Positions 16,377 to 32,000 of a stretch of 32,000 nt of DNA are shown piece after piece. Position 1 is the first letter of the stretch, and the number at the start of each line of letters is the position of its first letter. The notes under the pieces are model-generated. The model was given only the letters and a program-made list of their open reading frames with translations, had not been told where the DNA came from and made no database searches. Source of the DNA: Nitrosopumilus maritimus SCM1 (GTDB taxonomy: Archaea > Thermoproteota > Nitrososphaeria > Nitrososphaerales > Nitrosopumilaceae); NCBI RefSeq assembly GCF_000018465.1, contig NC_010085.1, positions 1,080,001 through 1,112,000 on the forward strand, given 5' to 3'. Both the position numbers and the translations under genes were made by a program.

Positions 16377-19300
16377 CTAACTTACGTTGACAGTTGTACT
16401 AACTGGTGGTGATAATGCCGTAGGATTATCAACAGACTCCCAGACGAATGCAGTAGCAGTGTATGTTCCTGCTTCAGTTGGAATCCATGATAAAGCTGGG
16501 CTGAATGATTGACCGCTAGATAGTGAACCTGTAATCCATGCTAGTGAGACGGTAACACCGTTTGCATCCTGAATCTGTACCAAGTATGCAAATGATTGCT
16601 CTCTATCCTGACCATTTGCTAAGTCAGCGCTGATTTGTACCTGTTGGTCAACGGAAACAGAATCTAAGCTGTTACCGAATGCGTCAACGGCTCTCAAGTT
16701 AGCAGCTGGTGCTCTCTCGAGAGGTGGTACTACAGTGCCAATTAGTGAAGTGGCAGTAATATCAAGTTCATCTGCAGTTGTGTATGGATCAGGTAGTGTA
16801 TTGTCCTCATATTCTGCAGTGACTGTGTCACCTTCTGAAACTCTGAGTCTGTGACCAGATGACTCATTATGAACTGTGAAGAACACAGTTCCCTCAAAGA
16901 TTCCGGTTGCCTCATTAGTCTCAGTTAAAGTTAGGTCAATACCTCCGGCATCGGAGTCAGACCACACGTCAACATTAAAGTTGTCGACTGCTTCTGGATC
17001 TAAGTTCATGTCTGGATCAATTACTCTTACAACACCTGTTCCGCTAGCTGGGTAGCTTGCCTCAAGCCATTGGACTTCACCGATGTTCCATCTGATAAGG
17101 GCAGAGCCTACAATTGTCTCATCTTCAGAGAATTCGAAGGAGATAGTAAGTCCGTCATCATCGTCAGTGGCCAAGAGACCATCTGTTGGACCAGTACCAG
17201 AAGTGGTACCTTTTGCATCGCCAGTAGTTCCATCACCATCAGCATCATGGGAAGTAAATCCTGTGAGGATTACTTCACCAGTAAAGATGCCGGTGTCAGT
17301 ACCAGTCTCGACGAGTTTATAGTTGTCAAGATCAAATCCTCTGGTAGAGACCTTAATTGGATCTCTGTCAGATTCGCCGATTTCATCAACTAGGAAACTG
17401 TCAAAGTTGTGATCTGGTGCGACGATAGTAATGTATACTTTGTCAGTCCAAGTGTATACTTTTTGGTCAAGTTCTACAGTTGCTCCGAAGTTTGAAGTGT
17501 AGATTGTCAAGTTGACATCTTCATCTTCATCTCCTACATAATCAGATCCGGATGGACCCCAGTCAGTGTACTCTAGGATGATTTCCTCACCTCTTTCTAA
17601 TCTGTCACCATCAAGTTCTTCAGGAATTTCGATGACAATCTGGAAGATACCAGTAGAGTCACCTGTTTCTCTAAAGTCAGTTGGTTCTGGGTCAAATGCA
17701 GCTGCTGCGCCGGTTACACCTTTGTTACCCATGGTAGTGGTGGCGGCATCAGAGTCCCATTCGATCAAGTCCAAGTCATAGGTCTCAGCACTGTCATTGT
17801 CCAGATCAAAGTCTGGCTCAATGAGTGTTAAGATCATGTCTGAACCGATAATGTATACGGATTTGTCAGATTGTAATACACCGTTTCTTAGGTCAAATGT
17901 TGCAGAATCAGTAACAGTATTTGCATCGCCGGATGCGTCAGCTGGATCAGTGTATTCTACTTGGAGAATATCTCCTTGTAAGATACAGTATTCTTGGCCA
18001 GATGGTGCACCGTCATCAAATCTGTTGGTATCAGCCTTACCAGTAGTACCGTCGGTAGCAGTATAGATGGTGTCATGACTGTTACATTTTGCTGATGCTG
18101 GACCGTCAGTGAATTTAATGTCTAGCTCTAACTCGAAAACACCAGCATCTGGTGCGATTTCAACCATTTCACCGAAACTTCTGATGTTTGAGATGGTTCC
18201 ATTGTTACCACCAACATCAATCTTTCCGGTTCTTTCAGAAGCGCCTGCATAGCCGAGAACTACACTATCAGAACCTCTGATAACAGAGATTTTGAGTGCA
18301 TCATCTTGGTCCATGGTATCTTCACCAGATGGGTTTTCGTCAAAGTCTGGATCGTTAATTCTGACGTGGATAGTTAGATCACCATTTGCCAATTCTTCAG
18401 TGGAATCAATAGTACTAGTGACTCCTGTTGCGTGAATTGGGAATACTGATCTTCCATTTGGAGATGCGTTTGCTGCTGCATTAGATTCTCCTACCGTACC
18501 AAATGGTACTGGATAGACAGTTCTGTCAAGACTAACTGAACCAGTGTGTGCTCTGATACCTGCGGAATCACTAACCTGAATGATTTCACCAGATGCATCT
18601 CTGAAGTCAACATAGTTAACTTCGATATCAAGACCGGTTATGGTTTCAGGAGTAGCATTGTCAGATCTACACCAATCAACTGGGATTTGGAAATCACCAA
18701 CAAAGACACCACTTGCTTTACCTGTTTCAACTAGAGTGAATCCAGTTGCACCAAGACCAGTATCACTACTTGCTTGGTTGTCATCACAGGTACCTTGGGC
18801 AGTCTTCCATACTACATCATTAAAGCTAACATCTAGTAATCTACCGAGTTCACCAAAGCTGAGATCCTGTGTAGTTGCTGAACCAACAACATCAAAGGTA
18901 TCTGCTCCAGTATCAGAGACAACAGTAAAGATGTCAATAAGATCAGAGTCTACGTTAAGATCCAAGTCTTCTACAGTTATTACTACAGTGTCAGCAATCT
19001 TGTAAGAATCAGCATCTAGAGATACAACACCAGAGTGGCTTGGAGCATCTTCTTGGTCAGATACAGGAGTTGTTACACCATCTGCACCCAAGTCATTATA
19101 GTTGACTCTTGGTGCATCCTCGTCAGTAAGATCCTCAATTACGATGAATGTTGGATCATCTGCGATTGGTGTGATACCAGCGAAGGTACCAGCATCCTGT
19201 ATGTTAATTTGGTTAACCATGACATACTCAAGTGAACCTTCAAAGATACTTGTGTTGTCACCTGTCTCTTCAGCTTCAATTCTGATTATTTGGTTTGCAA

Positions 19301-21503
19301 ATCTTTCACCAGATTGTGCACCATCATCAGTGAAACCAAATGAGAAGAAGTCCATGACGATTACTTCTTTGGCGGCGATGTCATCGACACCTGTGAAGTA
19401 CATTGCAAGTCCGACGTTTACGTTATCATCATCATTAGTTGATCCGTAAATAGCATCAGATACTGCATTGGTCAAATCAATGTAATCCTGTGACTCAGTT
19501 GAGTTGCTGACTAACAATATTGCATTGTTTTTGTCAATATTTCTTGTATCGTTGTTAACCCATGGGAGAATATTTCCTGTGGTGTTAAGCAATGCGATAC
19601 TTACTGTATCTGCCCCTAATGATTTCACATCATAGTTAAAGAAGTTAAAACCAATAGTGGTGTTATCTTCATCAACTAGAGTTTCTTTTAGGGTTTTCAT
19701 AGTTGCACTTCCTAAATCAATGATTGCAAAGTCAACATCAAAGTTTGCTGAACTGTTGGCAGTCTGTGCAGAGATTAATCTCTTACTGAATGTATCAACA
19801 GATTCAGTTGAAGTGATGTTGGTTGCACCGGTGAATGCAGTTACGTTGATGTTGAGTGTAAAGTTACCTACTTGACCTGCTGCAGTGTTGTTTATTGCAC
19901 CTGTATCAAAGATACTATCATCACCGTTTGTACCATTGGTAAAGATCAAGCTAGGAGTTCCACCCTCATCAATAGTGAATGGATCACCAGTAGCGAGTGC
20001 TGGAATCAGGGTTACGTCTGGGTTGTTTAGGTCTAAGTCTTCATCTACTCTGCTGTTTTTGTTTTGATCAGCATCAACAATGACTACTGGAATCTCTTCA
20101 CCAGAGGTCCATTCATCATCAACTGGCTGGATATCAATACTAGCAAAGGAGAATCCTACAAGGATAGTTTGAGGTGTTTCATTGTAATCGAGTGATGCAG
20201 AGGTTCCCCTCTTTGCATTATCTGTAATCTTTAGTACTGATGTATCAGATTCATCATAAGTACCAAAGACACCACTGTTTGGACCTTGTTCGGTGATGGT
20301 TACTGGGATGGAACCTACACCTAACTCACCTGTCTCTGCGGAAATACCAAATGCAGATGCATTGTTGGTGTTGGCAGTTGAGTTAAGTTGGGTAAGGATT
20401 GAATCGCCGTTATCCTGAATTGTCACAACTGGTGTGCCAGAGCTTTGTGCATCGACATCTAATTTCAATACACAATTGTCCTCACACATCAAGTTTGGTA
20501 ATGTTGTTCTCAGGGTTAATGCGCTTCCACCTGAAGCACCGTTTTCATCGAACACTTGGTAAAATGTATCAACATTGAAGGATGATGTTGTATTCTTCGT
20601 GTTGGTAGCAAATGTCCAAGAGTCTTCATCAGTTGGATCAATGTTTAACCATAAGTCAGTAATTGTTGCGTGAACTTGTGATACTCTTGGGTATACAGCT
20701 CTATCCAAACTTAATTCGGCAAATTGATCAACAGTGTCAAAAGTAAGTGTTGTTGATTGAACACCACCACCTTTGTTGTACTGTACGACAACGTTACCTG
20801 TTGGGTTTAATTCATAGAGCTGAATGAAAGGCCAGTTAGCACCATTGTTGGTACCGTTCTTTAGACCGATTTGGCCTGCACTGACACTACCAGATACTGC
20901 TACAGGATCTTTGGCTTCTCTTACAACATTGATGGTACCATTAGCAGTAGATGCATCAAGTGTATTTGCTGCACAAGTAGTAGTGATTGCACCACCACTG
21001 TTGCTACCGGTTTGTGTACCGTTACCAGTTGCTGTTGCATTTGCAACAGTAATTGGAACTGCGATACCATCTGTTTCAGTTGTTGAGAATCCCAAGAATG
21101 CTGTACCAGAGGATGCTGCACAGAATACACCAAAGTCCAATCCAGAACCTATTGTTGTAGCAGTAGAGTCTGCAATTTGGGCTTGGTCTCTGTCTGCAAA
21201 GTAACCATACCAGTTACCATCAACTGCTTGAACCATTCTCAGATTTTTGCCGTTGACAGTTACGTCTGGCTCACCTTTTGCCTCATCTGTATCATTGATG
21301 TCACTATCAATTACGACGACCTCAATTACTTGAGGTCCTGACATGTAGTTATCAAACTGTGAGTTTTCTGCGGAAACAAATAGGTTGGCGTTGGCGGCCA
21401 TTGCTTCAGGCATTACACCTGGAATTGCAAAGGTCAGTCCACCGGCAACCATAATTGTCATTAATGTAAGACTAGTTATTTTACGTCCTATTTCGTTGTA
21501 CAT
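16377..21503 (-). CDS. Giant secreted acidic multi-domain protein, probable S-layer protein
   Basis: 1708 aa with signal peptide (LTLMTIMVAGGLTFAIPGVMPEAMA). Very rich in D/E/T/G/S/V, few Cys, repetitive beta-rich segments. Size and composition match what is known of the ~1700-aa acidic Ig-domain S-layer protein of Nitrosopumilus. Confidence 0.75.
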   Translation of the reverse strand: MYNEIGRKITSLTLMTIMVAGGLTFAIPGVMPEAMAANANLFVSAENSQFDNYMSGPQVIEVVVIDSDINDTDEAKGEPDVTVNGKNLRMVQAVDGNWYGYFADRDQAQIADSTATTIGSGLDFGVFCAASSGTAFLGFSTTETDGIAVPITVANATATGNGTQTGSNSGGAITTTCAANTLDASTANGTINVVREAKDPVAVSGSVSAGQIGLKNGTNNGANWPFIQLYELNPTGNVVVQYNKGGGVQSTTLTFDTVDQFAELSLDRAVYPRVSQVHATITDLWLNIDPTDEDSWTFATNTKNTTSSFNVDTFYQVFDENGASGGSALTLRTTLPNLMCEDNCVLKLDVDAQSSGTPVVTIQDNGDSILTQLNSTANTNNASAFGISAETGELGVGSIPVTITEQGPNSGVFGTYDESDTSVLKITDNAKRGTSASLDYNETPQTILVGFSFASIDIQPVDDEWTSGEEIPVVIVDADQNKNSRVDEDLDLNNPDVTLIPALATGDPFTIDEGGTPSLIFTNGTNGDDSIFDTGAINNTAAGQVGNFTLNINVTAFTGATNITSTESVDTFSKRLISAQTANSSANFDVDFAIIDLGSATMKTLKETLVDEDNTTIGFNFFNYDVKSLGADTVSIALLNTTGNILPWVNNDTRNIDKNNAILLVSNSTESQDYIDLTNAVSDAIYGSTNDDDNVNVGLAMYFTGVDDIAAKEVIVMDFFSFGFTDDGAQSGERFANQIIRIEAEETGDNTSIFEGSLEYVMVNQINIQDAGTFAGITPIADDPTFIVIEDLTDEDAPRVNYNDLGADGVTTPVSDQEDAPSHSGVVSLDADSYKIADTVVITVEDLDLNVDSDLIDIFTVVSDTGADTFDVVGSATTQDLSFGELGRLLDVSFNDVVWKTAQGTCDDNQASSDTGLGATGFTLVETGKASGVFVGDFQIPVDWCRSDNATPETITGLDIEVNYVDFRDASGEIIQVSDSAGIRAHTGSVSLDRTVYPVPFGTVGESNAAANASPNGRSVFPIHATGVTSTIDSTEELANGDLTIHVRINDPDFDENPSGEDTMDQDDALKISVIRGSDSVVLGYAGASERTGKIDVGGNNGTISNIRSFGEMVEIAPDAGVFELELDIKFTDGPASAKCNSHDTIYTATDGTTGKADTNRFDDGAPSGQEYCILQGDILQVEYTDPADASGDANTVTDSATFDLRNGVLQSDKSVYIIGSDMILTLIEPDFDLDNDSAETYDLDLIEWDSDAATTTMGNKGVTGAAAAFDPEPTDFRETGDSTGIFQIVIEIPEELDGDRLERGEEIILEYTDWGPSGSDYVGDEDEDVNLTIYTSNFGATVELDQKVYTWTDKVYITIVAPDHNFDSFLVDEIGESDRDPIKVSTRGFDLDNYKLVETGTDTGIFTGEVILTGFTSHDADGDGTTGDAKGTTSGTGPTDGLLATDDDDGLTISFEFSEDETIVGSALIRWNIGEVQWLEASYPASGTGVVRVIDPDMNLDPEAVDNFNVDVWSDSDAGGIDLTLTETNEATGIFEGTVFFTVHNESSGHRLRVSEGDTVTAEYEDNTLPDPYTTADELDITATSLIGTVVPPLERAPAANLRAVDAFGNSLDSVSVDQQVQISADLANGQDREQSFAYLVQIQDANGVTVSLAWITGSLSSGQSFSPALSWIPTEAGTYTATAFVWESVDNPTALSPPVSTTVNVS

Positions 21504-21855: not shown

Positions 21856-22230
21856 ATGAGAACAACATTGGCTGTAATTTTAGTTGTAGATGATAACACA
21901 GATTTGTTAGGACTGAACACATTCATGCTAAAAAACTTAGATTATGATGTGATTACAGCCACAAATGGCGAGGAGGCAGTTGCAGCATACAAGACAGCAA
22001 GACCTGACATTGTGATCATGGACATCAAGATGCCTAAAATGGATGGTTTTGACGCCTTTTTTAAAATCAAAAAAATGAATCAATCTGCAAAGATCATTCT
22101 AATTTCTGCATATGCCATTGATGAGAAAAAACTCCTCAATGCGCAAAGCATGGGTTTGCTTAATGTCATAAACAAACCATATGAGTTTGATGACATTGAA
22201 AAACTAATCAAAGAACATGTAGGAGACTAG
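21856..22230 (+). CDS. Receiver-only (CheY-like) response regulator RR1
   Basis: Contains VVDD, the phospho-acceptor IVIMDIKMPKMDG, LISAY and INKPYE (conserved Lys). No output domain. Confidence 0.88.
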   Translation: MRTTLAVILVVDDNTDLLGLNTFMLKNLDYDVITATNGEEAVAAYKTARPDIVIMDIKMPKMDGFDAFFKIKKMNQSAKIILISAYAIDEKKLLNAQSMGLLNVINKPYEFDDIEKLIKEHVGD

Positions 22231-24188: not shown

Positions 24189-25030
24189 ATCAAAACACCC
24201 AGTTTGGTAATCTTCAGTCGTATCTACGTTATACGCAACCTACTGCAAAATACCTCTTTGGCAGCATGTCATTTAGAAAGAAAAAAAGTTCCAAGCACCA
24301 AGAAAATGTCCAAAAAATGTTAGAAGCGCTTGCACTAAATGGTGCATTGACCACTTGGGAGATTGCAAAGTTGTCTCATTCTGATATATCATCTATTAGA
24401 ACCAAGGACAAAGAACTGCGCAGACTTGTTGTTGGGAGAAGGGACAGAGGAAGGAAAACACTTGGCATAATTGATGTTGGACTGGTAATAGCTAATACTG
24501 AAAATTTGGAACTAGACACTTCTAAGAAATACAGGCTGTCATTGCATGGCATATTGTATTGCCTTGACGTGCTTGATTTTAGCAAAAAAGAAATTGATCA
24601 AATGGCCTCAAACTACTCGGACATACTTCCGATGATTTTTGGAAAATGGGATTATCTTAAGTCAATTATTGGCGATGATGTTTATCGCATCAGATTATTG
24701 ACAGGGGGTCTGTTTTTGGATACCGTCCACATTACAAAAATCTCTCAAACTCCTATTTTTGAAATAATAACATACCTTAATGTGAAATATCAGGACTATT
24801 ACGAAAGTATTGATGAAAATGATTTGGCAGACCAGATATCCTATTTGTTCTATGCTGCGCTTTTGGTTCCATTTACTGTAAATGAAAACGATGAAGAAAA
24901 TAAGACTGAGAAATGGAAAAAACTTTTCGAAGAAGATGAAAATTTAAACATTTGGTTTTTTGATTTTATTAAAGAGACGTCCAAATTTTATTCAAACAGA
25001 TTTGATTTTATCAAATCAATGATTCCCTAG
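24185..25030 (+). CDS. Lineage-specific protein X2, putative winged-helix regulator (paralog of X1)
   Basis: Start set at the ATG at 24185 (MNQNTQFGNLQSY...), which aligns with the X1 N-terminus. The track start at 24038 would overlap P3 by 150 nt. 281 aa. Confidence 0.7.
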   Translation: MNQNTQFGNLQSYLRYTQPTAKYLFGSMSFRKKKSSKHQENVQKMLEALALNGALTTWEIAKLSHSDISSIRTKDKELRRLVVGRRDRGRKTLGIIDVGLVIANTENLELDTSKKYRLSLHGILYCLDVLDFSKKEIDQMASNYSDILPMIFGKWDYLKSIIGDDVYRIRLLTGGLFLDTVHITKISQTPIFEIITYLNVKYQDYYESIDENDLADQISYLFYAALLVPFTVNENDEENKTEKWKKLFEEDENLNIWFFDFIKETSKFYSNRFDFIKSMIP

Positions 25031-25310
25031 TCTCCTACATGTTCTTTGATTAGTTTTTCAATGTCATCAAACTCATATGGTTTGTTTATGACATTAAGCA
25101 AACCCATGCTTTGCGCATTGAGGAGTTTTTTCTCATCAATGGCATATGCAGTTATTAGGGTCACTTTACAATCAGAATCAAATTTTTTCATACGGGCAAA
25201 GGCGTCAAAACCATCCATTTTAGGCATCTTGATGTCCATGATCACAATGTCAGGTCTTGCTGTCTTGTATGCTGCAACTGCCTCCTCGCCATTTGTGGCT
25301 GTAATCACAT
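24998..25310. repeat. Right arm of 313-bp mosaic inverted repeat (partner 21947..22259)
   Basis: See the left arm. This arm covers the last 11 codons of X2, the shared CTAG stop overlap and the C-terminal two-thirds of RR2. Confidence 0.9.
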
Positions 25311-25464
25311 TATATCCCATATTGCTGATCGAAAACTTGTTCAACTCCAACAAATCAATGTCATCATCTACCAAAAGAACTGTTTTATCTTCGCCTTCCA
25401 AGACAAGTAAGTTATGACAGGGGCAAATATAACCACTATGAATTTTGAATGTGTTTTGGGACAA
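25027..25464 (-). CDS. Receiver-only (CheY-like) response regulator RR2
   Basis: LLVDDD, IVIMDIKMPKMDG, LITAY and INKPYE. The last 42 aa are identical to RR1. Its start overlaps the kinase gene's 3' end by 29 nt. Confidence 0.85.
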   Translation of the reverse strand: MSQNTFKIHSGYICPCHNLLVLEGEDKTVLLVDDDIDLLELNKFSISNMGYNVITATNGEEAVAAYKTARPDIVIMDIKMPKMDGFDAFARMKKFDSDCKVTLITAYAIDEKKLLNAQSMGLLNVINKPYEFDDIEKLIKEHVGD

Positions 25465-27310
25465 TGATAGAGAAGGTGACAGGGTTGTTTTTCACAGTTA
25501 TCTGCCAGCCATGTTGTTCTATCACATTTTTGCTAATTGCCAAGCCCAAGCCAGTGCCTTTTTGCTTGGTTGTAAAGAGAGGCTTGAATATGTCTTGCAA
25601 AATATCACCAGGTATGGCAGGCCCATCATTTTCAAATTCGATGGTTTTCTGTTTTTTATCATCAATCAGATTGATTTTGATGCGACCTTGTTTTTCTTCA
25701 AATGCCTGAATTGCGTTTAGTATCAAGTTGATAAAGACGATCTCAAGTTTTTCAACATCACATTTCACGGTAAAATCGATGTCAGGTTTCACTATCTCGA
25801 CATTGTTTGGTATGCTTAATGATTCAAAAGAAGAGGTTATTATTTTTTGAATTGAAACTTCGATTAAATTGATTGGTGTGATCCTCACATAGTTTAGAAC
25901 CTCGTCTATCTGATGAGTTATTCTAGATATTGCTCGGTCCATCTTTGGAAAAACAAGTTCTTTTAATTTTGGATCCATGTTGTTTGAGTTTTGTTTGATT
26001 ATGTTTGTAGCAGACTTTATGGATGCAAGTGGGTTTTTAAGATCATGTGCCACGTTTGCAGACAACTCTCCCATTGCAGCAAATCTTTCATTTTTTACTT
26101 TGGCTCTTGTTTCTGCAAGCTCTTTTTCTGTCTCTACTAGATTTTTCAAGTCAACGGACATTTTTTCAAAGGATTTTTCTATGGTTTTGATCTCGCTTAT
26201 CTGATGTTTTTGCAGCTTGACATCAAAATTTCCTTGCGCAATGTTTCTGGCAACATCTACAAGATAACTTAAAGGATTTGTTATTGATCTAGATATCAAA
26301 ATTGAAATGATCAACGCAGAAATCAGACCGATTACAGAAGCAATAATGACTGTCTCTCTGATTTCAGAAAAATCATCTAGCAACTGATGTTCTGCTTGCT
26401 CTATTATGATAGTCCATCCAAACCCTCTGAAATCTTCGAACCCTATTGATGTGGAATAGCTTACCAGGATAGGCTCTCCCAGATTATTTTTTATTTCAAA
26501 TGTATCACGGTTTTTTGATATTTGTGGGAAATACTCTATTGTTTTTTGGATGCTGGAATCTTGTTCGGTTCCAGGATACAATATTTTGCCTGACTCGTCA
26601 ACTAGGAACACACTACGAGTGCCTGTCTGCTGTAAAATCTCATGGTCGTCTACTAGATCAGACAAGATGTCATCAAGACTCAAAGCAACCCTCATCACCC
26701 CTACAAAATTTCCCTCATCATCCACTATGCGCATTCCAAAGGGAATGGAAAACTCTTCATAATTGTCATTATATTCCAATTTGCCAATGTACATCCCGTC
26801 TCTCTTGGTCAATTGCCACCATTCTTCATCGTCTTGCCTATAGTCTGACGTACCGGTACCCAGTGCTATGCTTGCTCCATATTCGTTTGTTATGAATAAT
26901 TCATCTATTATGTTATGGCCAAAAGATTCTTCATAAAAAATAATCAGCTCTGCTAGCTCCTCTGATGCATCCTCCAGGTTCACCTCAGTTAAGAATCGAA
27001 ATTCAGAGTCTGTTGTCTGTTCTTTACTATCCAAAAACTCTTCAATATCAGATATGTTTCTAAACATGTCATTTGATTTCACGATTGAAGAGCGTACTTC
27101 CTCCACCGTAGTTATTGTTTTAAAATCATCAATTCTGTTTTTGATGTATTGATCTATGTCCAAAATCATAGAGTCGGCCAAAGATGTATTGCGCAGTTCT
27201 ACGGATTTACGCAACTCTTGAGAATTTATATCAATTATGACAAATGAAGTGACTGCAAATATTAGAAACAACGCAACAACGTTTATTGTTAAAAGGATAG
27301 ATATCTTCAA
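25436..27310 (-). CDS. Sensor histidine kinase (TM - ~290-aa extracytoplasmic domain - TM - HAMP - HisKA - HATPase_c)
   Basis: TTG start. Two TM helices (aa 5-27 and ~320-342) and a HAMP-like ITNPLSYLVDVARNIAQGNF. H-box SANVAHDLKNPLASI, N-box INLILNAIQA, and G-boxes ENDGPAIP / GTGLGLAISK. Confidence 0.88.
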   Translation of the reverse strand: MKISILLTINVVALFLIFAVTSFVIIDINSQELRKSVELRNTSLADSMILDIDQYIKNRIDDFKTITTVEEVRSSIVKSNDMFRNISDIEEFLDSKEQTTDSEFRFLTEVNLEDASEELAELIIFYEESFGHNIIDELFITNEYGASIALGTGTSDYRQDDEEWWQLTKRDGMYIGKLEYNDNYEEFSIPFGMRIVDDEGNFVGVMRVALSLDDILSDLVDDHEILQQTGTRSVFLVDESGKILYPGTEQDSSIQKTIEYFPQISKNRDTFEIKNNLGEPILVSYSTSIGFEDFRGFGWTIIIEQAEHQLLDDFSEIRETVIIASVIGLISALIISILISRSITNPLSYLVDVARNIAQGNFDVKLQKHQISEIKTIEKSFEKMSVDLKNLVETEKELAETRAKVKNERFAAMGELSANVAHDLKNPLASIKSATNIIKQNSNNMDPKLKELVFPKMDRAISRITHQIDEVLNYVRITPINLIEVSIQKIITSSFESLSIPNNVEIVKPDIDFTVKCDVEKLEIVFINLILNAIQAFEEKQGRIKINLIDDKKQKTIEFENDGPAIPGDILQDIFKPLFTTKQKGTGLGLAISKNVIEQHGWQITVKNNPVTFSIIVPKHIQNS

Positions 27311-27754: not shown

Positions 27755-28102
27755 ATGAAACAAAAAATACTTTTGTTAGCTGCATTGTTTGCTCCTTTGC
27801 TGTTGGTATTTTCAAATATACCTGCAGCTGAAGCGCAACAAAGCACTAACTATGAGCACGATCCAAACATAGAAAAAGTCATTGTTGAAAAACGAGAAGG
27901 AACCGCAGGTTATGCAAATTATCTTGTAAAAATTTGTGCGGATGACAGTTCCATGAAACTCGGAAAGATGATGCTTCATTCAGATTTGGATCAAATACTT
28001 TTGGAGTTCAACAAAAGTCTTGCAAAAGGAGATTGTACCTTTGCAGGAGCAGTGCTCAAAAACAGCAATCTTGACAGTCTTGGTGCTACATTTCTTAATT
28101 AG
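27755..28102 (+). CDS. Small secreted protein P1 with two-Cys module
   Basis: Signal peptide LLLAALFAPLLLVFSNIPAAEA. The mature ~90 aa align without gaps to the N-terminal domain of P3, including both Cys residues. Confidence 0.65.
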   Translation: MKQKILLLAALFAPLLLVFSNIPAAEAQQSTNYEHDPNIEKVIVEKREGTAGYANYLVKICADDSSMKLGKMMLHSDLDQILLEFNKSLAKGDCTFAGAVLKNSNLDSLGATFLN

Positions 28103-28391: not shown

Positions 28392-28916
28392 ATGACGAAA
28401 AAACAAACAGTCATCATGACAATGCTTCCAGCACTAGCAATGATGCTACTAATTACTCCAACAGTAGAACAATCATATGCCCAGGTGCAAAAATCCACTC
28501 ATCCTGATGTACAAAGACTATCACCCAGTTCATTCGGCATAAAGACTGCGGACAGGGTATGCGGAGACAAGCTGTGTTCTGAAATAAGAGAACCTGTAAT
28601 CAACATAGAAGAAGAAGATACCATTCAAGAAGTCACGGAGGAGTTGGATCATATGCCTGATCTTGACTTGCTTAACATAATCAAATACAGGAAAAATTCT
28701 GTTGATCCAGTTTCTCATGTCTTAATTTACAAGATTACTGGCGGCACATTAAACCTAGCAGACATTGCCATAGAAGCATCATCAGACATTAATGAAGTCA
28801 AATACAACGTAACAGCACTGAGTGCAGAAAAGTCGACCACAAACGTTGTACGCATAATGGCTTTAGACCCAGATTCCATCAATGTACAAGTGGTAGGTTA
28901 CACACTAAAACAATAG
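28392..28916 (+). CDS. Small secreted protein P2
   Basis: Signal peptide VIMTMLPALAMMLLITPTVEQSYA. The C-terminal ~60 aa show weak gapless similarity to the P1/P3 module (KI...SD...). Confidence 0.65.
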   Translation: MTKKQTVIMTMLPALAMMLLITPTVEQSYAQVQKSTHPDVQRLSPSSFGIKTADRVCGDKLCSEIREPVINIEEEDTIQEVTEELDHMPDLDLLNIIKYRKNSVDPVSHVLIYKITGGTLNLADIAIEASSDINEVKYNVTALSAEKSTTNVVRIMALDPDSINVQVVGYTLKQ

Positions 28917-29171
28917 TCCCTGTAAACACCTATTTTTTCTTTTATTATTTTTACAGTGTTTGTTTAGTGAGAAACTAGATTGAATCCCATAATGTTGAGC
29001 CATTTGTTCATAAAGCATTTTCACAATTTCATTATTCTAGGGATTTTTTAGGAATTACCTTCCAATGACCAGGTCCAGCATCAATCACATGTTTCAATAG
29101 TTTCTCAAGTTCAGTATATTTTTTTCCACAAGAACAATAATTCAAGGATTACTTACTGAATTATGCAAAAA

Positions 29172-29202
29172 ATATTAGTATTGTCTGATTGGATGCGGTA
29201 TG
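29172..29202 (-). promoter_or_regulatory. Promoter module H (orphan): CATACCGCA-N15-CTAATAT
   Basis: About 75% identical to module F over ~60 nt, including the upstream TCTTTATGTGTAT and the downstream TTTTTTGCA. Only a 37-codon TTG ORF follows. Confidence 0.4.
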
Positions 29203-29413
29203 CCCATACACATAAAGAATCAGAAGTAAAGATAGTTTCTAACAAGAAAACTAGGATTCAGACTCTAGTTATTCAAAAGGACTGGGGCTTTGGTTTGACT
29301 CTGAGTTCTGCAAATACTTAAGAAAATATTGTCACAAGTTAAGACTTAAAATCAATATTTTTTATAAAATATTTGCAAGGACATAATCAAATAAACTATC
29401 AGATATATCCATG

Positions 29414-30718
29414 TCAGTTATCCATACCAAATTTGTTTTTAACATAAGTTTCAATTGCATTCATATTATCTTTATTTGAATCACCAAAAACAAAAAATCG
29501 TTCAATAGCAGAATTTTTTACAGTAATGGGTGAGAAATCATCTAATTTTCGAGGTATATTTTTCCAAAGAACAAGTATTTCCCCATCATACAGACCAACA
29601 GGGATTTTTGAAAGATATGCTATTGTATCAGAATATTCTAGTCCCAAAGATTGAGACATTTCTGCAGCAAATTGTTTTAATTTGGAATAATCCATTTTCA
29701 TTACTTGATCTCTGATTATTGCATTTTCAATTTCTTTATCAGGGAGAATTTCACAAGCACGTTTTAACAAATTTCGTTTTTGAATATTTTTTAAAATTCT
29801 TGCAGATTTGCTGTCAGGTTTAGTGTTAATAATTTCGTCATAAATAGTCTTATCATTTAATTTCAAGTAGTATTCTAAAAATTCATCATTACCATTTAAT
29901 GTAGAATTATCAGCTTTTAGTTTGTCTATTGGGATGATTTCTTCTTCATTTGTAGCTAAATCTAATGCTCGCAGAAACATTTGATCCGCAGTTAATCTTG
30001 CATGGTGTTGATATACTTGAGCATGCATTAGATAGCGTCCCAATCGATAGTTTTCAATTGAGTCTTTTCCTTTATCCTGAATGCAAATTCTTTGTTCGTC
30101 TGTTTCAGTACTAGTTATAGTGTGGATTATTCTTGCTAAATCAAATTGTCCGTAAGCAACACCAATATGATATGAATCTCTTCGTAGATAATCCATCTTA
30201 TCTACATCTAATGCACTTGAAATAACATCACTTGCCAGAGTACTCAATCCTGAATCCCAATCAGAAACAGGTTTGTGGTCTAACAGTTGGATTATTTTTT
30301 GAGATTTATCACCTAAAATACTTTGAAGTTCAGGGTTTTTTGAAATGATCAACATAGAAATCCATTCATGATCAATTTTGTTTTCATTAACATTTGAGAT
30401 TACGGATTCAAATAGATGAGAATAGGGTCCATGTCCAACATCATGAAGTAATGCAGCCAGTCTTACAATTTCTTTAGTAGTATCATCAAAATTCAATTGA
30501 TCACATACTTTACCTGCAAGATGCGTAGCCCCAAGAGAGTGTTCAAATCTAGTATGAATTGCAGTTGGATAAACAACAAATGCATGAGATAGTTGTTTTA
30601 TGTTCAACAATCGACGGAAGGGTGAAGAGTCAATCACCTGTTGTTCAGTTTTTGAAATATCTATAAAGCCATACAGAGGATCTCTAATGGATTTATACTT
30701 AAAATCAATTTTTGACAA
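29414..30718 (-). CDS. HD-domain phosphohydrolase, SAMHD1/dNTP-triphosphohydrolase-like (COG1078-type)
   Basis: IRDPLYGFIDIS...FRRLLNIKQLSHAFVVYPTAIHTRFEHSLGATHLA and LAALLHDVGHGPYSH (the HD motif) over 434 aa. Confidence 0.85.
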   Translation of the reverse strand: MSKIDFKYKSIRDPLYGFIDISKTEQQVIDSSPFRRLLNIKQLSHAFVVYPTAIHTRFEHSLGATHLAGKVCDQLNFDDTTKEIVRLAALLHDVGHGPYSHLFESVISNVNENKIDHEWISMLIISKNPELQSILGDKSQKIIQLLDHKPVSDWDSGLSTLASDVISSALDVDKMDYLRRDSYHIGVAYGQFDLARIIHTITSTETDEQRICIQDKGKDSIENYRLGRYLMHAQVYQHHARLTADQMFLRALDLATNEEEIIPIDKLKADNSTLNGNDEFLEYYLKLNDKTIYDEIINTKPDSKSARILKNIQKRNLLKRACEILPDKEIENAIIRDQVMKMDYSKLKQFAAEMSQSLGLEYSDTIAYLSKIPVGLYDGEILVLWKNIPRKLDDFSPITVKNSAIERFFVFGDSNKDNMNAIETYVKNKFGMDN

Positions 30719-31259
30719 TATTCACTAATTTTAATTCTTTAAGAAGTCCTACACCTTGAGATACATCATCAGGAGTAAGCTCCCAACCAAGTTTTTCTGC
30801 AGTTTTTATTGCATCATCATAATCCATTACTTTTTCTTTATCAGGATTGTTTTCCAACATAAAATACATTTTTGCAGCATATGAAAGAGGTGCAGTTTTT
30901 AATTTACAAAATTTATCACATGTAGATACCAAATATTTAATTTTTTGATATTCTGTAGGAAATGTAGATTTTACATGATTTGCCATATCTTGCCCATCAG
31001 GGGTTAAACGATACTTATAGCCCTCATGCATTTTTCCAGGAATTTTAATTTCATCAATAAAAGAATAGGTAACCATTTTTTCTAAAGCTAAACTAAGTTC
31101 TGGACTGTAAGGACCATAATAGTGAGGTTTGTAAACAGGGAGTGTAAGTCCTTCAATAGTTTTGTTTGAAAGGTATACTAGTTTATGGATCGCTGTTCGT
31201 CCAACAATTTCACCATTGTTTGAATCAAGTATTGATTCAACAGTTTCATAAACATCCAC
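30705..31259 (-). CDS. DUF4065/Panacea (SocA/GepA)-like domain protein
   Basis: GTG start. GRTAIHKLVYLSNK...YKPHYYGPYSPELSLAL matches the KLqKLlY...GPv.pely signature I associate with DUF4065. Its stop overlaps the HD gene's start by 14 nt. The CDS call is solid; the family assignment is tentative. Confidence 0.6.
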   Translation of the reverse strand: MDVYETVESILDSNNGEIVGRTAIHKLVYLSNKTIEGLTLPVYKPHYYGPYSPELSLALEKMVTYSFIDEIKIPGKMHEGYKYRLTPDGQDMANHVKSTFPTEYQKIKYLVSTCDKFCKLKTAPLSYAAKMYFMLENNPDKEKVMDYDDAIKTAEKLGWELTPDDVSQGVGLLKELKLVNIVKN

Positions 31260-31484
31260 AATACAACACCAACAAATTAATCAAATGTTCCACGTATATG
31301 ACATTTTTAAAAATATCTCAGATCTAAGTTGATTTGTTAATGATTTTAACTTGACACTTTCCAAAAACAAATTATTCAAGAGATAAAATTATCTGGAAAT
31401 AAATAAAACATGAGGTTATTATGGTATTACCTTTTAAGAATCAACTTTTTAGGAAGAAGTCTCCAACAGATAGGGATCTAAAAA

Positions 31485-32000
31485 TTGTATAAATTTGCAC
31501 ATGTTTCAGATATTCACCTAGGATTTCAAGACAAAAAAGAACTTCAAAAAATAGAACAAGAGGTATTTGAAGAAGTGGTTTGCACATGCATAAAACAAAA
31601 AGTAGATTTTGTGTTGATTACAGGTGATTTATTTCATAGAAACCTTCCAGAAATGAGAGTTCAAAGATTTGCATTTAAAAATTTCAAAAAACTTTATGAT
31701 GCAAAAATTCCAATTTATGTAGTATATGGCAGCCATGATTTTAGCCCTATAGAATACTCAGTGATAGATCTACTAACAGATGTGGGATACTTAACCAAAG
31801 TTTCAAAGGAACACACAAACAATGAAAAAACAGAATTAGATTTTACTGAAGACCCAAAAACAAAAGTGAAATTAGTAGGAATTTCAGGCAGAACAGCAGG
31901 AATAGATAAAGAAAATTATGAAAATTTGGAACTACCAGTACTAGATAATAGCTTTAAGATATTTTTGTTTCATATTGGTATTGATGAACTAAACTCTAGT
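31485..32000 (+). CDS. mre11: Mre11-type DNA double-strand-break repair nuclease (3'-truncated by window end; TTG start)
   Basis: Not in the supplied ORF track. Translation (M)YKFAHVSDIHLGFQ...VDFVLITGDLFH...IPIYVVYGSHD...IFLFHIG gives phosphoesterase motifs I-IV in Mre11 order. An in-frame TAA at 31479 forces the start to TTG 31485. Confidence 0.8.
   Translation, partial: MYKFAHVSDIHLGFQDKKELQKIEQEVFEEVVCTCIKQKVDFVLITGDLFHRNLPEMRVQRFAFKNFKKLYDAKIPIYVVYGSHDFSPIEYSVIDLLTDVGYLTKVSKEHTNNEKTELDFTEDPKTKVKLVGISGRTAGIDKENYENLELPVLDNSFKIFLFHIGIDELNSS

What the first reader, a model, noticed from the sequence alone, without database searches (positions are those of the whole stretch)
29414..31259. 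Translationally coupled pair: DUF4065/Panacea-like protein followed by a SAMHD1-like HD dNTPase - possible toxin-antitoxin or antiviral module
The upstream 184-aa gene has the signature I associate with DUF4065 (IHKLVYL...YYGPYSPEL). This is the Panacea domain of SocA/GepA-type proteins, reported as a promiscuous antitoxin domain paired with many unrelated toxins.

It overlaps by 14 nt the start of a 434-aa HD phosphohydrolase of the SAMHD1/dGTPase-like class (RDP.YG.I...F.RL..IKQL...HTRFEHSLG, HDVGHGPYSH). dNTP-depleting enzymes of this class restrict viruses in eukaryotes (SAMHD1). Bacterial dGTPase and dCTP-deaminase defence genes act similarly.

The order (small regulator first, enzyme second), the overlap, and the ~500-nt gene-free stretch downstream fit a two-gene defence or TA cassette. 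I know of no described Panacea-HD pairing, and none in ammonia-oxidising archaea. The family call for the small protein is from memory of the motif and needs verification.
Basis: partly seen in the sequence, partly recalled or inferred. Interest (0 to 1): 0.68.

Follow-up and report, generated by a model that had tools for sequence, protein, structure and literature searches.

The report
Conserved dNTPase with antitoxin-like partner
An ammonia-oxidising archaeon carries a tightly coupled gene pair, a SAMHD1-type nucleotide-degrading enzyme and a small partner related to the toxin-binding domain of the DarG antitoxin; the pair recurs across archaea and bacteria (including the Bacillus ywfO-ywgA region) but has never been tested experimentally.

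Summary
Two minus-strand ORFs, 184 aa (30705-31259) and 434 aa (29414-30718), overlap by 14 nt.

- **The large protein.** It is a SAMHD1/EF1143-type HD phosphohydrolase (HD plus HD_assoc_2) with all catalytic motifs intact.
- **The small protein.** It does not reach Pfam DUF4065/Panacea; only a few relatives give weak hits. Its family profile and its AlphaFold model both match the C-terminal, toxin-binding domain of the DarG antitoxin.
- **The pairing.** All 16 close HD relatives found in metagenomes have the partner directly upstream. About 100 fetched loci from Nitrosopumilaceae, methanogens, Bathyarchaeia and many bacteria carry the pair, in either gene order. HD proteins with and without the partner fall into separate clades.
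- **The surroundings.** Flanking genes are almost never conserved and are not clearly enriched in defence genes. In a Priestia record the pair sits among housekeeping genes I recognise from memory as the Bacillus ywfO-ywgA region.
- **Decay.** In several Nitrosopumilaceae the HD gene is deleted or split by an IS element while the small gene stays intact.
- **Prior record.** A supplementary table of the 2022 Panacea paper already lists untested PanA-HD(YdhJ) pairs in Clostridia.

Best reading: a self-contained dNTPase module regulated, probably restrained, by direct binding of the partner. A toxin-antitoxin or antiviral role is plausible but unproven.

The parts
30705..31259 (-). Small partner gene (184 aa, GTG start). 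It belongs to a YwgA-like family homologous to the DarG antitoxin C-terminal domain and only remotely Panacea-like. Predicted architecture: an N-terminal winged-helix-like core, then helical segments; the last ~50 residues give weak winged-helix Pfam hits in two relatives.
   Evidence: ORF and translation. No Pfam hit. PADLOC DarG 7e-8 and LmuC 1.5e-5. NCBIfam DarG 6e-6, far below its cut-off. Family profile against PDB 7yk3_B at 1.9e-7 and 1.2e-7. AF2 model pLDDT 92, pTM 0.90. Foldseek top hits 7yk3_B/D with TM 0.59-0.62, followed by PadR/MarR winged-helix proteins. The family has 1168 representatives at E<=1e-10, and the best 150 are all stand-alone proteins of 132-214 aa.
29414..30718 (-). 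HD phosphohydrolase gene (434 aa, TTG start). It is a SAMHD1/EF1143/YwfO-type predicted dNTP triphosphohydrolase with no SAM domain.
   Evidence: Pfam HD 1.1e-12 and HD_assoc_2 2.2e-13, both above cut-off. PDB matches 2hek 4e-47, 2q14 8e-41, 9mr6 7e-36, SAMHD1 about 5e-35, EF1143 1e-32. The motifs HTRFEHSLG, LLHDVGHGPYSH, DVDKMDYLRRD and QVYQHH align to the SAMHD1 equivalents and are invariant in the family.
30705..30718 (-). The 14-nt overlap between the stop of the small gene and the TTG start of the HD gene, a likely site of translational coupling.
   Evidence: Sequence at the junction. Identical gene calls on public contigs. In all 14 close metagenomic relatives checked, the HD reading frame opens before the small gene's stop. 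The bacterial pairs listed in the Panacea dataset overlap by -4, 0 and -17 nt.
31260..31484 (.). Divergent intergenic region (225 nt) between the pair and an Mre11/SbcD-like gene. It presumably holds the promoters of both.
   Evidence: Sequence. The neighbouring ORF 31485-32000(+) hits Metallophos at 5e-14. Promoter-like matches are not above shuffles, and the scan is for bacterial sigma-70 sites, so it says little for an archaeon.
28917..29413 (.). Downstream convergent intergenic stretch (497 nt). It contains no recognisable feature and is probably not part of the module.
   Evidence: Only ORFs of 52 aa or less. No Rfam family. One terminator-like hit lies inside the HD gene, none in this stretch. 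The small ORF called downstream in a relative (L161 9456-9656) has no counterpart here.

Best explanation
The two genes form a self-contained, co-translated module. The 434-aa protein is a SAMHD1/EF1143-type HD enzyme that most likely hydrolyses dNTPs to deoxynucleosides and triphosphate. The 184-aa protein is a stand-alone homologue of the DarG antitoxin domain that binds and inhibits the DarT toxin. It most likely binds the HD enzyme directly and holds it in check, in the manner of a type II antitoxin. When the partner is removed or overridden by virus infection, replication stress or a nucleotide signal, dNTP pools would fall and DNA synthesis would stop. Making the small protein first, from an overlapping reading frame, would ensure the enzyme never appears without its partner.

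**Shown here:** the family assignments, the intact active-site motifs, the partner's homology and fold, and the clade-wide conservation of the pair.

**Inferred:** dNTPase activity, physical binding, the inhibitory direction of regulation, and any antiviral or growth-arrest outcome.
For: 1. **Enzyme class.** HD plus HD_assoc_2 lie above Pfam cut-offs. The strongest matches to solved structures are 2hek, 2q14 and 9mr6 (depositors name no activity), followed by SAMHD1 and EF1143 (2o6i); that the latter two are characterised dNTPases is cited from PMC13519002 reference 26 and the SAMHD1 papers. All metal-binding and catalytic motifs are conserved.
2. **Partner homology.** The family profile hits only the DarG C-terminal domain in the PDB (7yk3_B, E 1.2e-7 to 1.9e-7). 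The AF2 model (pLDDT 92) has 7yk3_B/D as its top structural matches over its full length. 7yk3 is the DarT-DarG complex, in which this domain keeps DarT inhibited (Deep et al. 2023, cited in PMC12170906).
3. **Obligate pairing.** All 16 HD relatives at 49% identity or more have the partner abutting upstream. About 60 of 80 partner-seeded genome loci have the HD gene adjacent by tblastn, and 103 of 160 loci carry the pair by HMM. Gene order flips between archaea (small then HD) and most bacteria (HD then small), yet adjacency is kept.
4. **Clade structure.** Partner-bearing and partner-less HDs form separate clades.
5. **Only the pair is conserved.** 145 of 166 flanking ORFs are singletons.
6. 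**Asymmetric decay.** In Nitrosopumilaceae the HD gene is reduced to a stub (L002, L010), split by an IS element (L012, L019) or absent (L009, L024) while the small gene stays intact. No close HD lacks the partner.
7. **Precedent.** In the Clover system a dNTPase needs a restraining partner to avoid toxicity (PMC12265719).
8. **Charge.** The small family is mildly acidic (median pI 6.2), unlike typical DNA-binding winged-helix regulators.
9. **Patchy, mobile setting.** Close relatives carry the pair amid IS elements, a ThsB_TIR gene, GmrSD_N and HEPN genes.
Against:
- Immediate neighbours across 149 flanking ORFs are mostly housekeeping or miscellaneous. Only a handful are defence-like: IetA, Drt9, OLD/Gabija-like ATPases and type I methyltransferases, two each.
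- In Priestia the pair sits among hemQ, pta, rsfA and speEB. That looks like a stable core location rather than a mobile TA or defence island.
- The module is nearly absent from plasmids and absent from the phage collection searched.
- The decay asymmetry rests on few events. The HD gene is the larger target, about 70% of the pair's length, so the asymmetry is not statistically compelling.
- The most conserved residues of the partner (T22, Q25, K26, Y29, H46, Y47, Y48, S52, S126, K130, W159) are polar or aromatic. That could equally mark a ligand pocket, which would make it a sensor or activator rather than an inhibitor.
- The protein is not a Pfam Panacea member by threshold.
Confidence: 0.45

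Rival explanations
1. This is a housekeeping nucleotide-pool enzyme with an accessory subunit. The HD protein trims or sanitises dNTP pools during slow growth or stationary phase. The small protein is a non-toxic regulatory or stabilising subunit, an activator, specificity factor or nucleotide sensor. No toxin-antitoxin or antiviral logic is involved.
For: - In Priestia megaterium the pair sits among conserved housekeeping genes (hemQ, pta, lipoate ligase, rsfA, speE/speB), which I recognise from memory as the B. subtilis ywfO-ywgA region.
- Most flanking genes across 149 ORFs are ordinary metabolic genes.
- A YwfO-like protein is retained in the minimal Syn3.0 genome and has been proposed as a nucleotide sanitiser (PMC4993169).
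- ywfO is listed among genes co-evolving with PolC (PMC3814617).
- The partner's invariant polar and aromatic patch is compatible with a small-ligand site.
- The pair is almost never on plasmids or phages.
Against: - In Nitrosopumilaceae the pair is patchy. About 13 Nitrosopumilaceae loci appear among the 80 loci kept from the scan of 185,579 species genomes, it lies in a different context in each, and it is repeatedly degraded by deletion or IS insertion.
- The partner's only recognisable relative is an antitoxin domain whose known job is to inhibit its cognate enzyme.
- Many related HD enzymes work without any partner.
Confidence: 0.3
2. The small protein is mainly a winged-helix transcription factor that autoregulates the operon and never acts on the enzyme itself.
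For: After DarG, the structural matches are PadR, MarR and VanR winged-helix regulators. Individual relatives give weak Pfam hits to HTH_45, HTH_12, HARE-HTH, MCM_C winged helix and RTP. Type II antitoxins commonly double as repressors.
Against: - The winged-helix matches are weak (E 0.06-0.8, TM 0.25-0.36), against TM 0.6 for DarG over the full length.
- The family is mostly acidic to neutral (68% with pI below 7).
- A dedicated repressor would not be expected to stay adjacent in either gene order across both domains, with clade-level co-inheritance with one enzyme subfamily.
- No conserved operator-like repeat was looked for or seen upstream.
Confidence: 0.12
3. The module is part of a larger DNA-repair or defence island with the divergently transcribed Mre11/SbcD-like and Rad50/SbcC-like genes. 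In this view the HD protein works with the nuclease complex, by analogy with human SAMHD1-MRE11 cooperation, which I recall from memory.
For: The pair is divergent from a 415-aa Metallophos gene followed by an 806-aa AAA_23 gene in the window's own genome. The Metallophos neighbour, intact or IS-truncated, is also present on all three contigs of a relative whose HD protein is 82% identical; the AAA_23 gene is seen on one of them (L162). A ParA-like gene and a weak integrase hit lie further on.
Against: None of the 160 other loci has an Mre11-like homologue within the flanks. The Metallophos gene is IS-truncated on two relative contigs while the pair stays intact. No third gene is conserved with the pair anywhere.
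Confidence: 0.05

Closest known systems
DarTG toxin-antitoxin system: the DarG C-terminal domain (PDB 7yk3)
   Same: The small protein is homologous in sequence profile (E about 1e-7) and fold (TM about 0.6 over the full length) to the DarG domain that binds and inhibits its cognate enzyme. It shares the QKLxY...YGPYS core.
   Different: It has no macrodomain and no DarT. It is a stand-alone 184-aa protein, and its partner enzyme is an HD phosphohydrolase rather than a DNA ADP-ribosyltransferase. It scores far below the NCBIfam DarG cut-off, 25.8 against 250 bits.
PanA/Panacea (DUF4065, PF13274) antitoxins, including the untested PanA-'YdhJ' HD pairs (toxin cluster T34) in the dataset of Kurata et al. 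2022
   Same: Both involve a small antitoxin-type protein next to, and overlapping, an HD domain protein. The motif resembles Panacea, which I recall from memory. A few family members give weak PF13274 hits. The dataset lists HD-then-PanA pairs in Ammonifex, Desulfofundulus and Caldicellulosiruptor. A Desulfofundulus genome here carries this family's pair in the same order (L042).
   Different: The window protein and the ten bacterial and viral-contig members tested individually do not hit PF13274 at all. Identity with the listed PanA proteins could not be checked. The listed pairs are bacterial, untested and not discussed in the paper's main text.
SAMHD1 / EF1143 / Aquifex Aq_1910 (2hek) dNTP triphosphohydrolases (COG1078, YdhJ/YwfO type)
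   Same: They share the HD plus HD_assoc_2 architecture and the catalytic motifs.
   Different: This protein has no SAM domain. This subfamily is tied to a separate partner protein, whereas SAMHD1 and EF1143 are, from established knowledge, regulated by nucleotides at allosteric sites. The activity of this protein is untested.
Clover (CloA dNTPase + CloB nucleotidyltransferase) and single-gene anti-phage dGTPases
   Same: The logic is similar: a dNTP-depleting HD enzyme encoded with a partner that restrains it until needed (PMC12265719).
   Different: The partner here has no nucleotidyltransferase features. The HD protein scores far below the anti-phage dGTPase models: NF041026 gives 22.7 against a 400-bit cut-off, and PADLOC dGTPase matches only residues 25-110. 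No defence-island enrichment was seen.
Bacillus ywfO-ywgA gene pair
   Same: A Priestia megaterium record has an 'HD domain-containing protein' followed by a 169-aa hypothetical protein that matches the window's small protein (28% identity, E 2e-9, 90% coverage). The surrounding genes I recognise as the B. subtilis ywf/ywg/ywh region. One JGI homologue is annotated 'YwgA'.
   Different: The gene order is reversed (HD first) and the context is stable and core-like. The library searched has no functional description of either gene. The identification of the gene names is from memory.

Membership tests
Pfam PF13274 SocA_Panacea (DUF4065) | Match to the family HMM at or above its curated threshold | tested here: not met
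   The window protein has no Pfam family at E<=1. 4 of 25 and 3 of 105 relatives hit weakly, best E 2.6e-4 and 4.1e-5. None of 10 further bacterial or viral-contig members hits it at E<=10.
Pfam PF13274 SocA_Panacea (DUF4065) | Encoded next to a toxin that it neutralises | not testable with these tools
   Adjacency to an enzyme gene is shown. Toxicity and neutralisation need experiments.
DarG antitoxin (NF048014 / PADLOC DarG) | C-terminal DarT-binding domain: sequence and fold | tested here: met
   Profile against 7yk3_B at E 1.2e-7 to 1.9e-7, covering residues 23-168. Foldseek TM 0.59-0.62. PADLOC DarG 7e-8 on model positions 173-302 of 329.
DarG antitoxin (NF048014 / PADLOC DarG) | N-terminal macrodomain (ADP-ribosyl glycohydrolase) and a DarT partner | tested here: not met
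   The protein is 184 aa and matches only the C-terminal part of the DarG models. It scores 25.8 bits against a cut-off of 250. Its neighbour is an HD protein, not DarT.
SAMHD1/EF1143-type dNTP triphosphohydrolase (HD + HD_assoc_2) | HD domain and HD-associated region above Pfam thresholds | tested here: met
   HD 48.7 bits (cut-off 22) and HD_assoc_2 50.6 bits (cut-off 23.1).
SAMHD1/EF1143-type dNTP triphosphohydrolase (HD + HD_assoc_2) | Metal-binding and catalytic residues (H...HD...D plus catalytic His, and the YQH substrate motif) | tested here: met
   FEHSLG, LLHDVGHGPYSH, DHE, DVDKMDYLRRD and VYQHH align with the SAMHD1, 2hek and 9mr6 equivalents. They are invariant in the 23-sequence family alignment.
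SAMHD1/EF1143-type dNTP triphosphohydrolase (HD + HD_assoc_2) | dNTP triphosphohydrolase activity | not testable with these tools
   This needs an enzyme assay. The closest solved relatives (2hek, 2q14) carry no activity in the depositors' names ('Hypothetical protein', 'Phosphohydrolase').
SAMHD1/EF1143-type dNTP triphosphohydrolase (HD + HD_assoc_2) | SAM domain (SAMHD1 proper) | tested here: not met
   No SAM domain hit. The alignment to SAMHD1 starts at the HD core.
Anti-phage dGTPase (NF041026 / PADLOC dGTPase) | Full-length match above the model cut-off | tested here: not met
   NF041026 22.7 bits against 400. TIGR01353 36.6 against 152. PADLOC dGTPase matches residues 25-110 only.
Type II toxin-antitoxin module | Two adjacent co-oriented genes with an overlap or short gap, conserved as a unit in varying contexts | tested here: met
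   The overlap is 14 nt. The pair is conserved in about 100 loci with non-conserved flanks.
Type II toxin-antitoxin module | Toxin arrests growth and the antitoxin neutralises it by binding | not testable with these tools
No experimental data were found.
Defence-island system | Enrichment of known defence genes in the neighbourhood | tested here: inconclusive
   Few of 149 immediate neighbours hit defence models strongly (IetA, Drt9, AriA/OLD/GajA-like and MTase_I, two each), and many are housekeeping. One close relative shows ThsB_TIR, GmrSD_N and HEPN nearby. Priestia shows a core context.
Clover (CloA-CloB) | Partner is a Pol-beta-type nucleotidyltransferase that makes an inhibitory nucleotide | tested here: not met
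   The partner has no nucleotidyltransferase hit in Pfam, NCBIfam or PADLOC. Its fold is DarG-C-terminal-domain or winged-helix-like.

The most novel reading that the evidence does not exclude
A whole subfamily of SAMHD1-like dNTPases, spread over archaea and bacteria and including Bacillus YwfO, is controlled not by allosteric nucleotides alone but by a dedicated protein inhibitor. That inhibitor descends from the same domain that DarG uses to mimic single-stranded DNA and block DarT. Release of the inhibitor on virus infection would make this pair an ancient, cross-domain nucleotide-depletion immune module. It would be the first such module identified in ammonia-oxidising archaea. The structurally similar protein in Sulfolobus spindle-shaped virus 4 would then be a candidate viral decoy antitoxin.
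Probability: 0.2. Interest if true: 0.8.

Novelty: new variant of a known kind. Interest (0 to 1): 0.5.

Why it matters
How cells keep dNTP-destroying enzymes harmless until they are needed is an active question for SAMHD1 and for bacterial nucleotide-depletion defences. This pair offers a simple, widespread and testable answer: a protein partner of antitoxin ancestry.

- It can be tested in a model organism, B. subtilis ywfO-ywgA, as well as in archaea.
- It would extend the DarG C-terminal domain and Panacea type of neutraliser to a new class of enzyme.
- It would give marine ammonia oxidisers, whose antiviral repertoire is poorly known, a candidate nucleotide-depletion module.

If the module turns out to be housekeeping, it would still define an uncharacterised regulatory subunit for a conserved dNTPase subfamily.

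Tried and rejected
1. **Co-folding.** I built a linker-fused paired alignment of the two proteins (A5, 21 pairs).
2. **Pfam Panacea membership.** I tested the window protein, then 25, 105 and 10 relatives. Only sporadic sub-threshold hits appeared, so membership is rejected while remote kinship stays possible.
3. **A conserved third gene.** Flanking ORFs from 103 pair-bearing loci were clustered, and 145 of 166 are singletons. Large ORFs abutting some bacterial pairs are unrelated to each other: an SNF2/NOV_C helicase, a rhamnosidase-like protein, a GXGXG/GATase protein, and one with no hit.
4. **Synteny with the window's neighbours.** The Mre11-like, secreted-protein and histidine-kinase genes have no counterpart next to the pair in 160 loci.
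5. **Defence-island enrichment.** Weak or inconclusive.
6. **Natural fusions of the two domains.** None among the top 150 family representatives.
7. **A partner-specific C-terminal extension of the HD protein.** Partner-bearing HDs have a median of 436 aa against 401 aa for partner-less ones, but the ranges overlap, so this is inconclusive.
8. **The gene-free stretch downstream.** No RNA family, no conserved ORF and no terminator signal.
9. **Mobile-element carriage.** No INPHARED phage hit. One 'plasmid' hit carries chromosomal-type housekeeping genes. There are four IMG/VR contigs, three of them with the HD gene adjacent.
10. **Literature.** Searches for YwgA, YwfO and dNTPase plus antitoxin found no functional study. 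The paper on thaumarchaeal integrated elements does not mention this locus.
Full report
**1. The observation**

The small gene is 30705..31259 (184 aa, GTG start) and the HD gene is 29414..30718 (434 aa, TTG start).
- At the junction the small gene ends ...AAA AAT TGA. The only canonical start in the HD frame is the TTG 14 nt upstream of that stop's last base.
- Public contigs that encode the identical HD protein carry gene calls of 184 and 434 aa with the same 14-nt overlap.
- Homologues of the small protein begin at the aligned MD[VI]Y, which supports the GTG start.
- The roughly 500 nt downstream (28917-29413) is the gap between convergent genes. It holds no ORF over 52 aa and no Rfam family, and the promoter/terminator scan of 28800-31600 gave matches no more frequent than in shuffles.
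- One identical protein sits on a contig of 1,645,259 bp.

**2. The HD protein**

It matches Pfam HD (48.7 bits) and HD_assoc_2 (50.6 bits), both above their curated cut-offs.
- Among solved structures it matches Aquifex 2hek (4e-47), Bacteroides 2q14 (8e-41), 9mr6 (7e-36), many SAMHD1 entries (about 5e-35) and Enterococcus EF1143 2o6i (1e-32).
- In the residue-level alignments, FEHSLG, LLHDVGHGPYSH, DVDKMDYLRRD and VYQHH line up with the SAMHD1 metal-binding, catalytic and substrate motifs. They are invariant in a 23-sequence family alignment.
- It is not a member of the curated anti-phage dGTPase families. NF041026 gives 22.7 bits against a 400-bit cut-off, and the PADLOC dGTPase model matches only residues 25-110.

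I infer a dNTP triphosphohydrolase of the SAMHD1/EF1143 class. The activity itself is not shown.

**3. The small protein**

The DUF4065/Panacea call does not pass a formal test.
- The window protein has no Pfam hit at E<=1.
- Only 4 of 25 and 3 of 105 relatives give weak PF13274 hits, best 2.6e-4 and 4.1e-5.
- Ten further members tested singly give none.

A different relationship is reproducible, to the DarG antitoxin C-terminal domain.
- PADLOC DarG scores 7e-8 and NCBIfam DarG 6e-6, each on the C-terminal part of the model only.
- A family profile searched against all PDB sequences finds essentially one thing: chain B of 7yk3, the DarG C-terminal domain in the M. tuberculosis DarT-DarG complex (E 1.9e-7 with 25 sequences, 1.2e-7 with 105).
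- An AlphaFold2 model (pLDDT 92, pTM 0.90) has 7yk3_B and 7yk3_D as its best structural matches over the full length (TM 0.59-0.62). Much weaker PadR, MarR and VanR winged-helix matches follow.
- In DarTG this domain keeps the toxin inhibited by direct binding (Deep et al. 2023, cited in PMC12170906).

The family is sizeable: 1168 representatives at E<=1e-10 among 1.84 billion cluster representatives. The best 150 are all stand-alone proteins of 132-214 aa, with no fusions. One JGI record names a member 'YwgA'. The most conserved residues are G20, T22, Q25, K26, Y29, H46, Y47, Y48, G49, P50, S52, L125, S126, A128, K130 and W159. The family is mildly acidic, with a median pI of 6.2.

**4. Is the pairing real?**

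Yes, and it is the main result.
- *Seeding with the small protein.* The species-representative genomes gave 235 confirmed loci, of which the best 80 were fetched. In about 60 of these an HD homologue is directly adjacent by tblastn, and more by HMM.
- *Gene order.* In Nitrosopumilaceae, Methanomicrobiales, Methanoperedens and Bathyarchaeia the order is small then HD. In most bacteria (Planctomycetota, Verrucomicrobiota, Bacillota, Acidobacteriota and others) it is HD then small.
- *Seeding with the HD protein instead.* This was an independent metagenome scan. All 16 loci whose HD is at least 49% identical to the window's have the partner abutting upstream. More distant HDs (30-37% identical) are mixed.
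- *Tree.* A neighbour-joining tree of the HD proteins from that unbiased set puts partner-bearing and partner-less enzymes in separate clades. The association is therefore an inherited property of particular HD subfamilies rather than sporadic.
- *Flanks.* Only the two genes are conserved. 145 of 166 flanking ORFs are singletons, and none of the window's own neighbours recurs next to the pair elsewhere.

**5. Context and evolutionary behaviour**

In the window's genome the pair is divergent from a 415-aa Mre11/SbcD-like metallophosphoesterase and an 806-aa Rad50/SbcC-like ATPase. A ParA-like gene and a weak integrase hit lie further on.

A relative whose HD is 82% identical carries the pair on three contigs. 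These are crowded with IS elements and include ThsB_TIR, GmrSD_N and HEPN genes.

Across 149 immediate neighbours from all loci, most are ordinary genes and only a few are defence-like. I could not show defence-island enrichment.

In a Priestia megaterium record the pair ('HD domain-containing protein' then a 169-aa hypothetical) lies between rsfA/DUF1450 and a tautomerase, a site-2 protease, ywhD, a PBP and speEB. I recognise this from memory as the B. subtilis ywfO-ywgA neighbourhood. In Bacilli the pair therefore looks like stable core genome.

Within Nitrosopumilaceae the HD gene decays while the small gene survives:
- it is reduced to a stub of roughly 30 residues (aa 6-32 in L002, 6-38 in L010);
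- it is split by DDE_Tnp_1 or IS66 transposase genes in L012 and L019;
- it is absent in L009 and L024;
- in all six of these loci the small gene is intact, whereas in L001 both genes have decayed.

No close HD was found without the partner. This asymmetry is what a harmful enzyme with a protective partner would produce. But the events are few and the HD gene is the larger target, so I treat it as suggestive only.

The pair is almost absent from plasmids and from deposited phage genomes. Four IMG/VR contigs carry the small gene, three of them with the HD gene adjacent.

**6. Mechanism**

My best explanation (confidence 0.45) is a self-contained regulated dNTPase. The partner, made first from an overlapping frame, binds the enzyme and restrains it as DarG's C-terminal domain restrains DarT. 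Loss or displacement of the partner unleashes dNTP hydrolysis and halts DNA synthesis.

The Clover system shows that dNTPases can need a dedicated restraining partner to avoid self-toxicity (PMC12265719). SAMHD1's allosteric sites can accept oligonucleotides (PMC7854603 abstract). That makes a DNA-mimicking domain a conceivable ligand for such sites, but this step is speculation.

The rivals are:
- a housekeeping pool-sanitising enzyme with a benign regulatory or sensing subunit (0.30), supported by the Bacillus-type context and the polar conserved patch;
- a winged-helix autorepressor only (0.12);
- functional linkage to the neighbouring Mre11/Rad50-like genes (0.05), which the lack of co-occurrence elsewhere argues against.

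The first three are not mutually exclusive.

**7. Comparison with what is known**

The small protein shares the DarG C-terminal domain but is not DarG, since it has no macrodomain and no DarT partner. It is Panacea-like only remotely. The HD protein belongs to the SAMHD1/EF1143 class but lacks a SAM domain.

A supplementary table of the Panacea paper already lists PanA proteins next to 'HD domain-containing protein' toxins assigned to YdhJ (cluster pT33/T34). They occur in Ammonifex, Desulfofundulus and Caldicellulosiruptor, in toxin-then-antitoxin order, with overlaps of -4, 0 and -17 nt, and are marked not tested. The main text never mentions them. A Desulfofundulus genome in my set carries this family's pair in the same order (L042). 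These are therefore probably the same or a sister family, but I could not fetch those accessions to check.

I found no experimental work on YwgA or YwfO, and no dNTPase-antitoxin pair in the library.

**8. Verdict**

The pair is a real, ancient, widely distributed two-gene unit. Its partner is antitoxin-related by homology to DarG rather than by Pfam Panacea membership.

A toxin-antitoxin or antiviral role is a reasonable hypothesis without direct support, and the Bacillus-type context keeps a housekeeping reading alive.

Novelty is moderate. The arrangement is visible in model genomes and was listed computationally in 2022. The DarG link, the clade-level obligate pairing across both domains, the archaeal (including ammonia-oxidiser) members and the decay pattern are, as far as I could find, undescribed. 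Interest is 0.5.

Noticed in passing
window 31485-32000 (+), continuing beyond the window (L169 5570-9234): An Mre11/SbcD-like metallophosphoesterase (415 aa in full) is divergent from the pair. It is followed by an 806-aa Rad50/SbcC-like AAA_23 ATPase, a ParA-like gene, several hypotheticals and a weak phage-integrase hit about 9 kb away. On two contigs of a close relative (L161, L163) the metallophosphoesterase gene is cut to 157 and 171 aa by IS elements.
   Followed up: partly
window 16377-21503 (-): A 1708-aa ORF lies in a stretch of raised G+C (0.40-0.44 against about 0.33 around it). It has no Pfam family at E<=0.01.
   Followed up: no
window 21856-22230 (+), 25027-25464 (-), 25436-27310 (-): Two stand-alone response-regulator receiver proteins and a dCache/HAMP histidine kinase lie a few kb from the pair. 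The same kinase neighbour is seen on all contigs that encode the identical HD protein.
   Followed up: no
L012 6243-7499 and L019 6042-7757: In two Nitrosopumilaceae genomes the HD gene of the pair is split by an inserted transposase gene (DDE_Tnp_1 and IS66 respectively). The upstream small gene stays intact.
   Followed up: yes
L002 5557-5637, L010 5554-5652, L001 5001-5546, L009, L024 (5001-5552 and 7369-7857): Other Nitrosopumilaceae keep an intact small gene beside only a roughly 30-residue stub of the HD gene (L002, L010) or none at all (L009, L024). L001 has a truncated small gene and no HD gene. The Cenarchaeum MAG (L024) has two small-gene copies and no HD gene.
   Followed up: partly
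L161, L162, L163 (one ENA metagenome sample, ERZ26694896): Three different long contigs carry an identical copy of the pair in different IS-rich surroundings. These include a ThsB_TIR gene, a GmrSD_N gene and a HEPN_RiboL-PSP gene. This suggests a recombination hot spot, or several strains or copies.
   Followed up: no
BFVD entry A8TKI0 (Sulfolobus spindle-shaped virus 4), compared with the model of window 30705-31259: The best viral structural match of the small protein is an uncharacterised 159-aa protein of an archaeal virus (E 1.9e-4, TM 0.54/0.62, rmsd 2.6 Å over 125 columns). It could be a virus-borne relative of this antitoxin-like fold.
   Followed up: no
L007 (contig CATQGX010000004.1, labelled Gammaproteobacteria MAG): This locus carries a pair 47% and 58% identical to the window's, with the HD gene broken into three frames. 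It looks like a thaumarchaeal-type locus with sequencing frameshifts, or a mis-binned contig.
   Followed up: no
window 29032-29145 (-): A 37-aa ORF (MNYCSCGKKYTELEKLLKHVIDAGPGHW...) lies in the otherwise empty stretch downstream of the HD gene. There is no evidence that it is a gene.
   Followed up: no
window 27755-28102 (+) and 28392-28916 (+): Two small proteins with hydrophobic N-termini that look like signal peptides lie convergent to the pair: 115 aa (weak DUF7032 hit) and 174 aa (no family). They are not found next to the pair in any other locus.
   Followed up: partly
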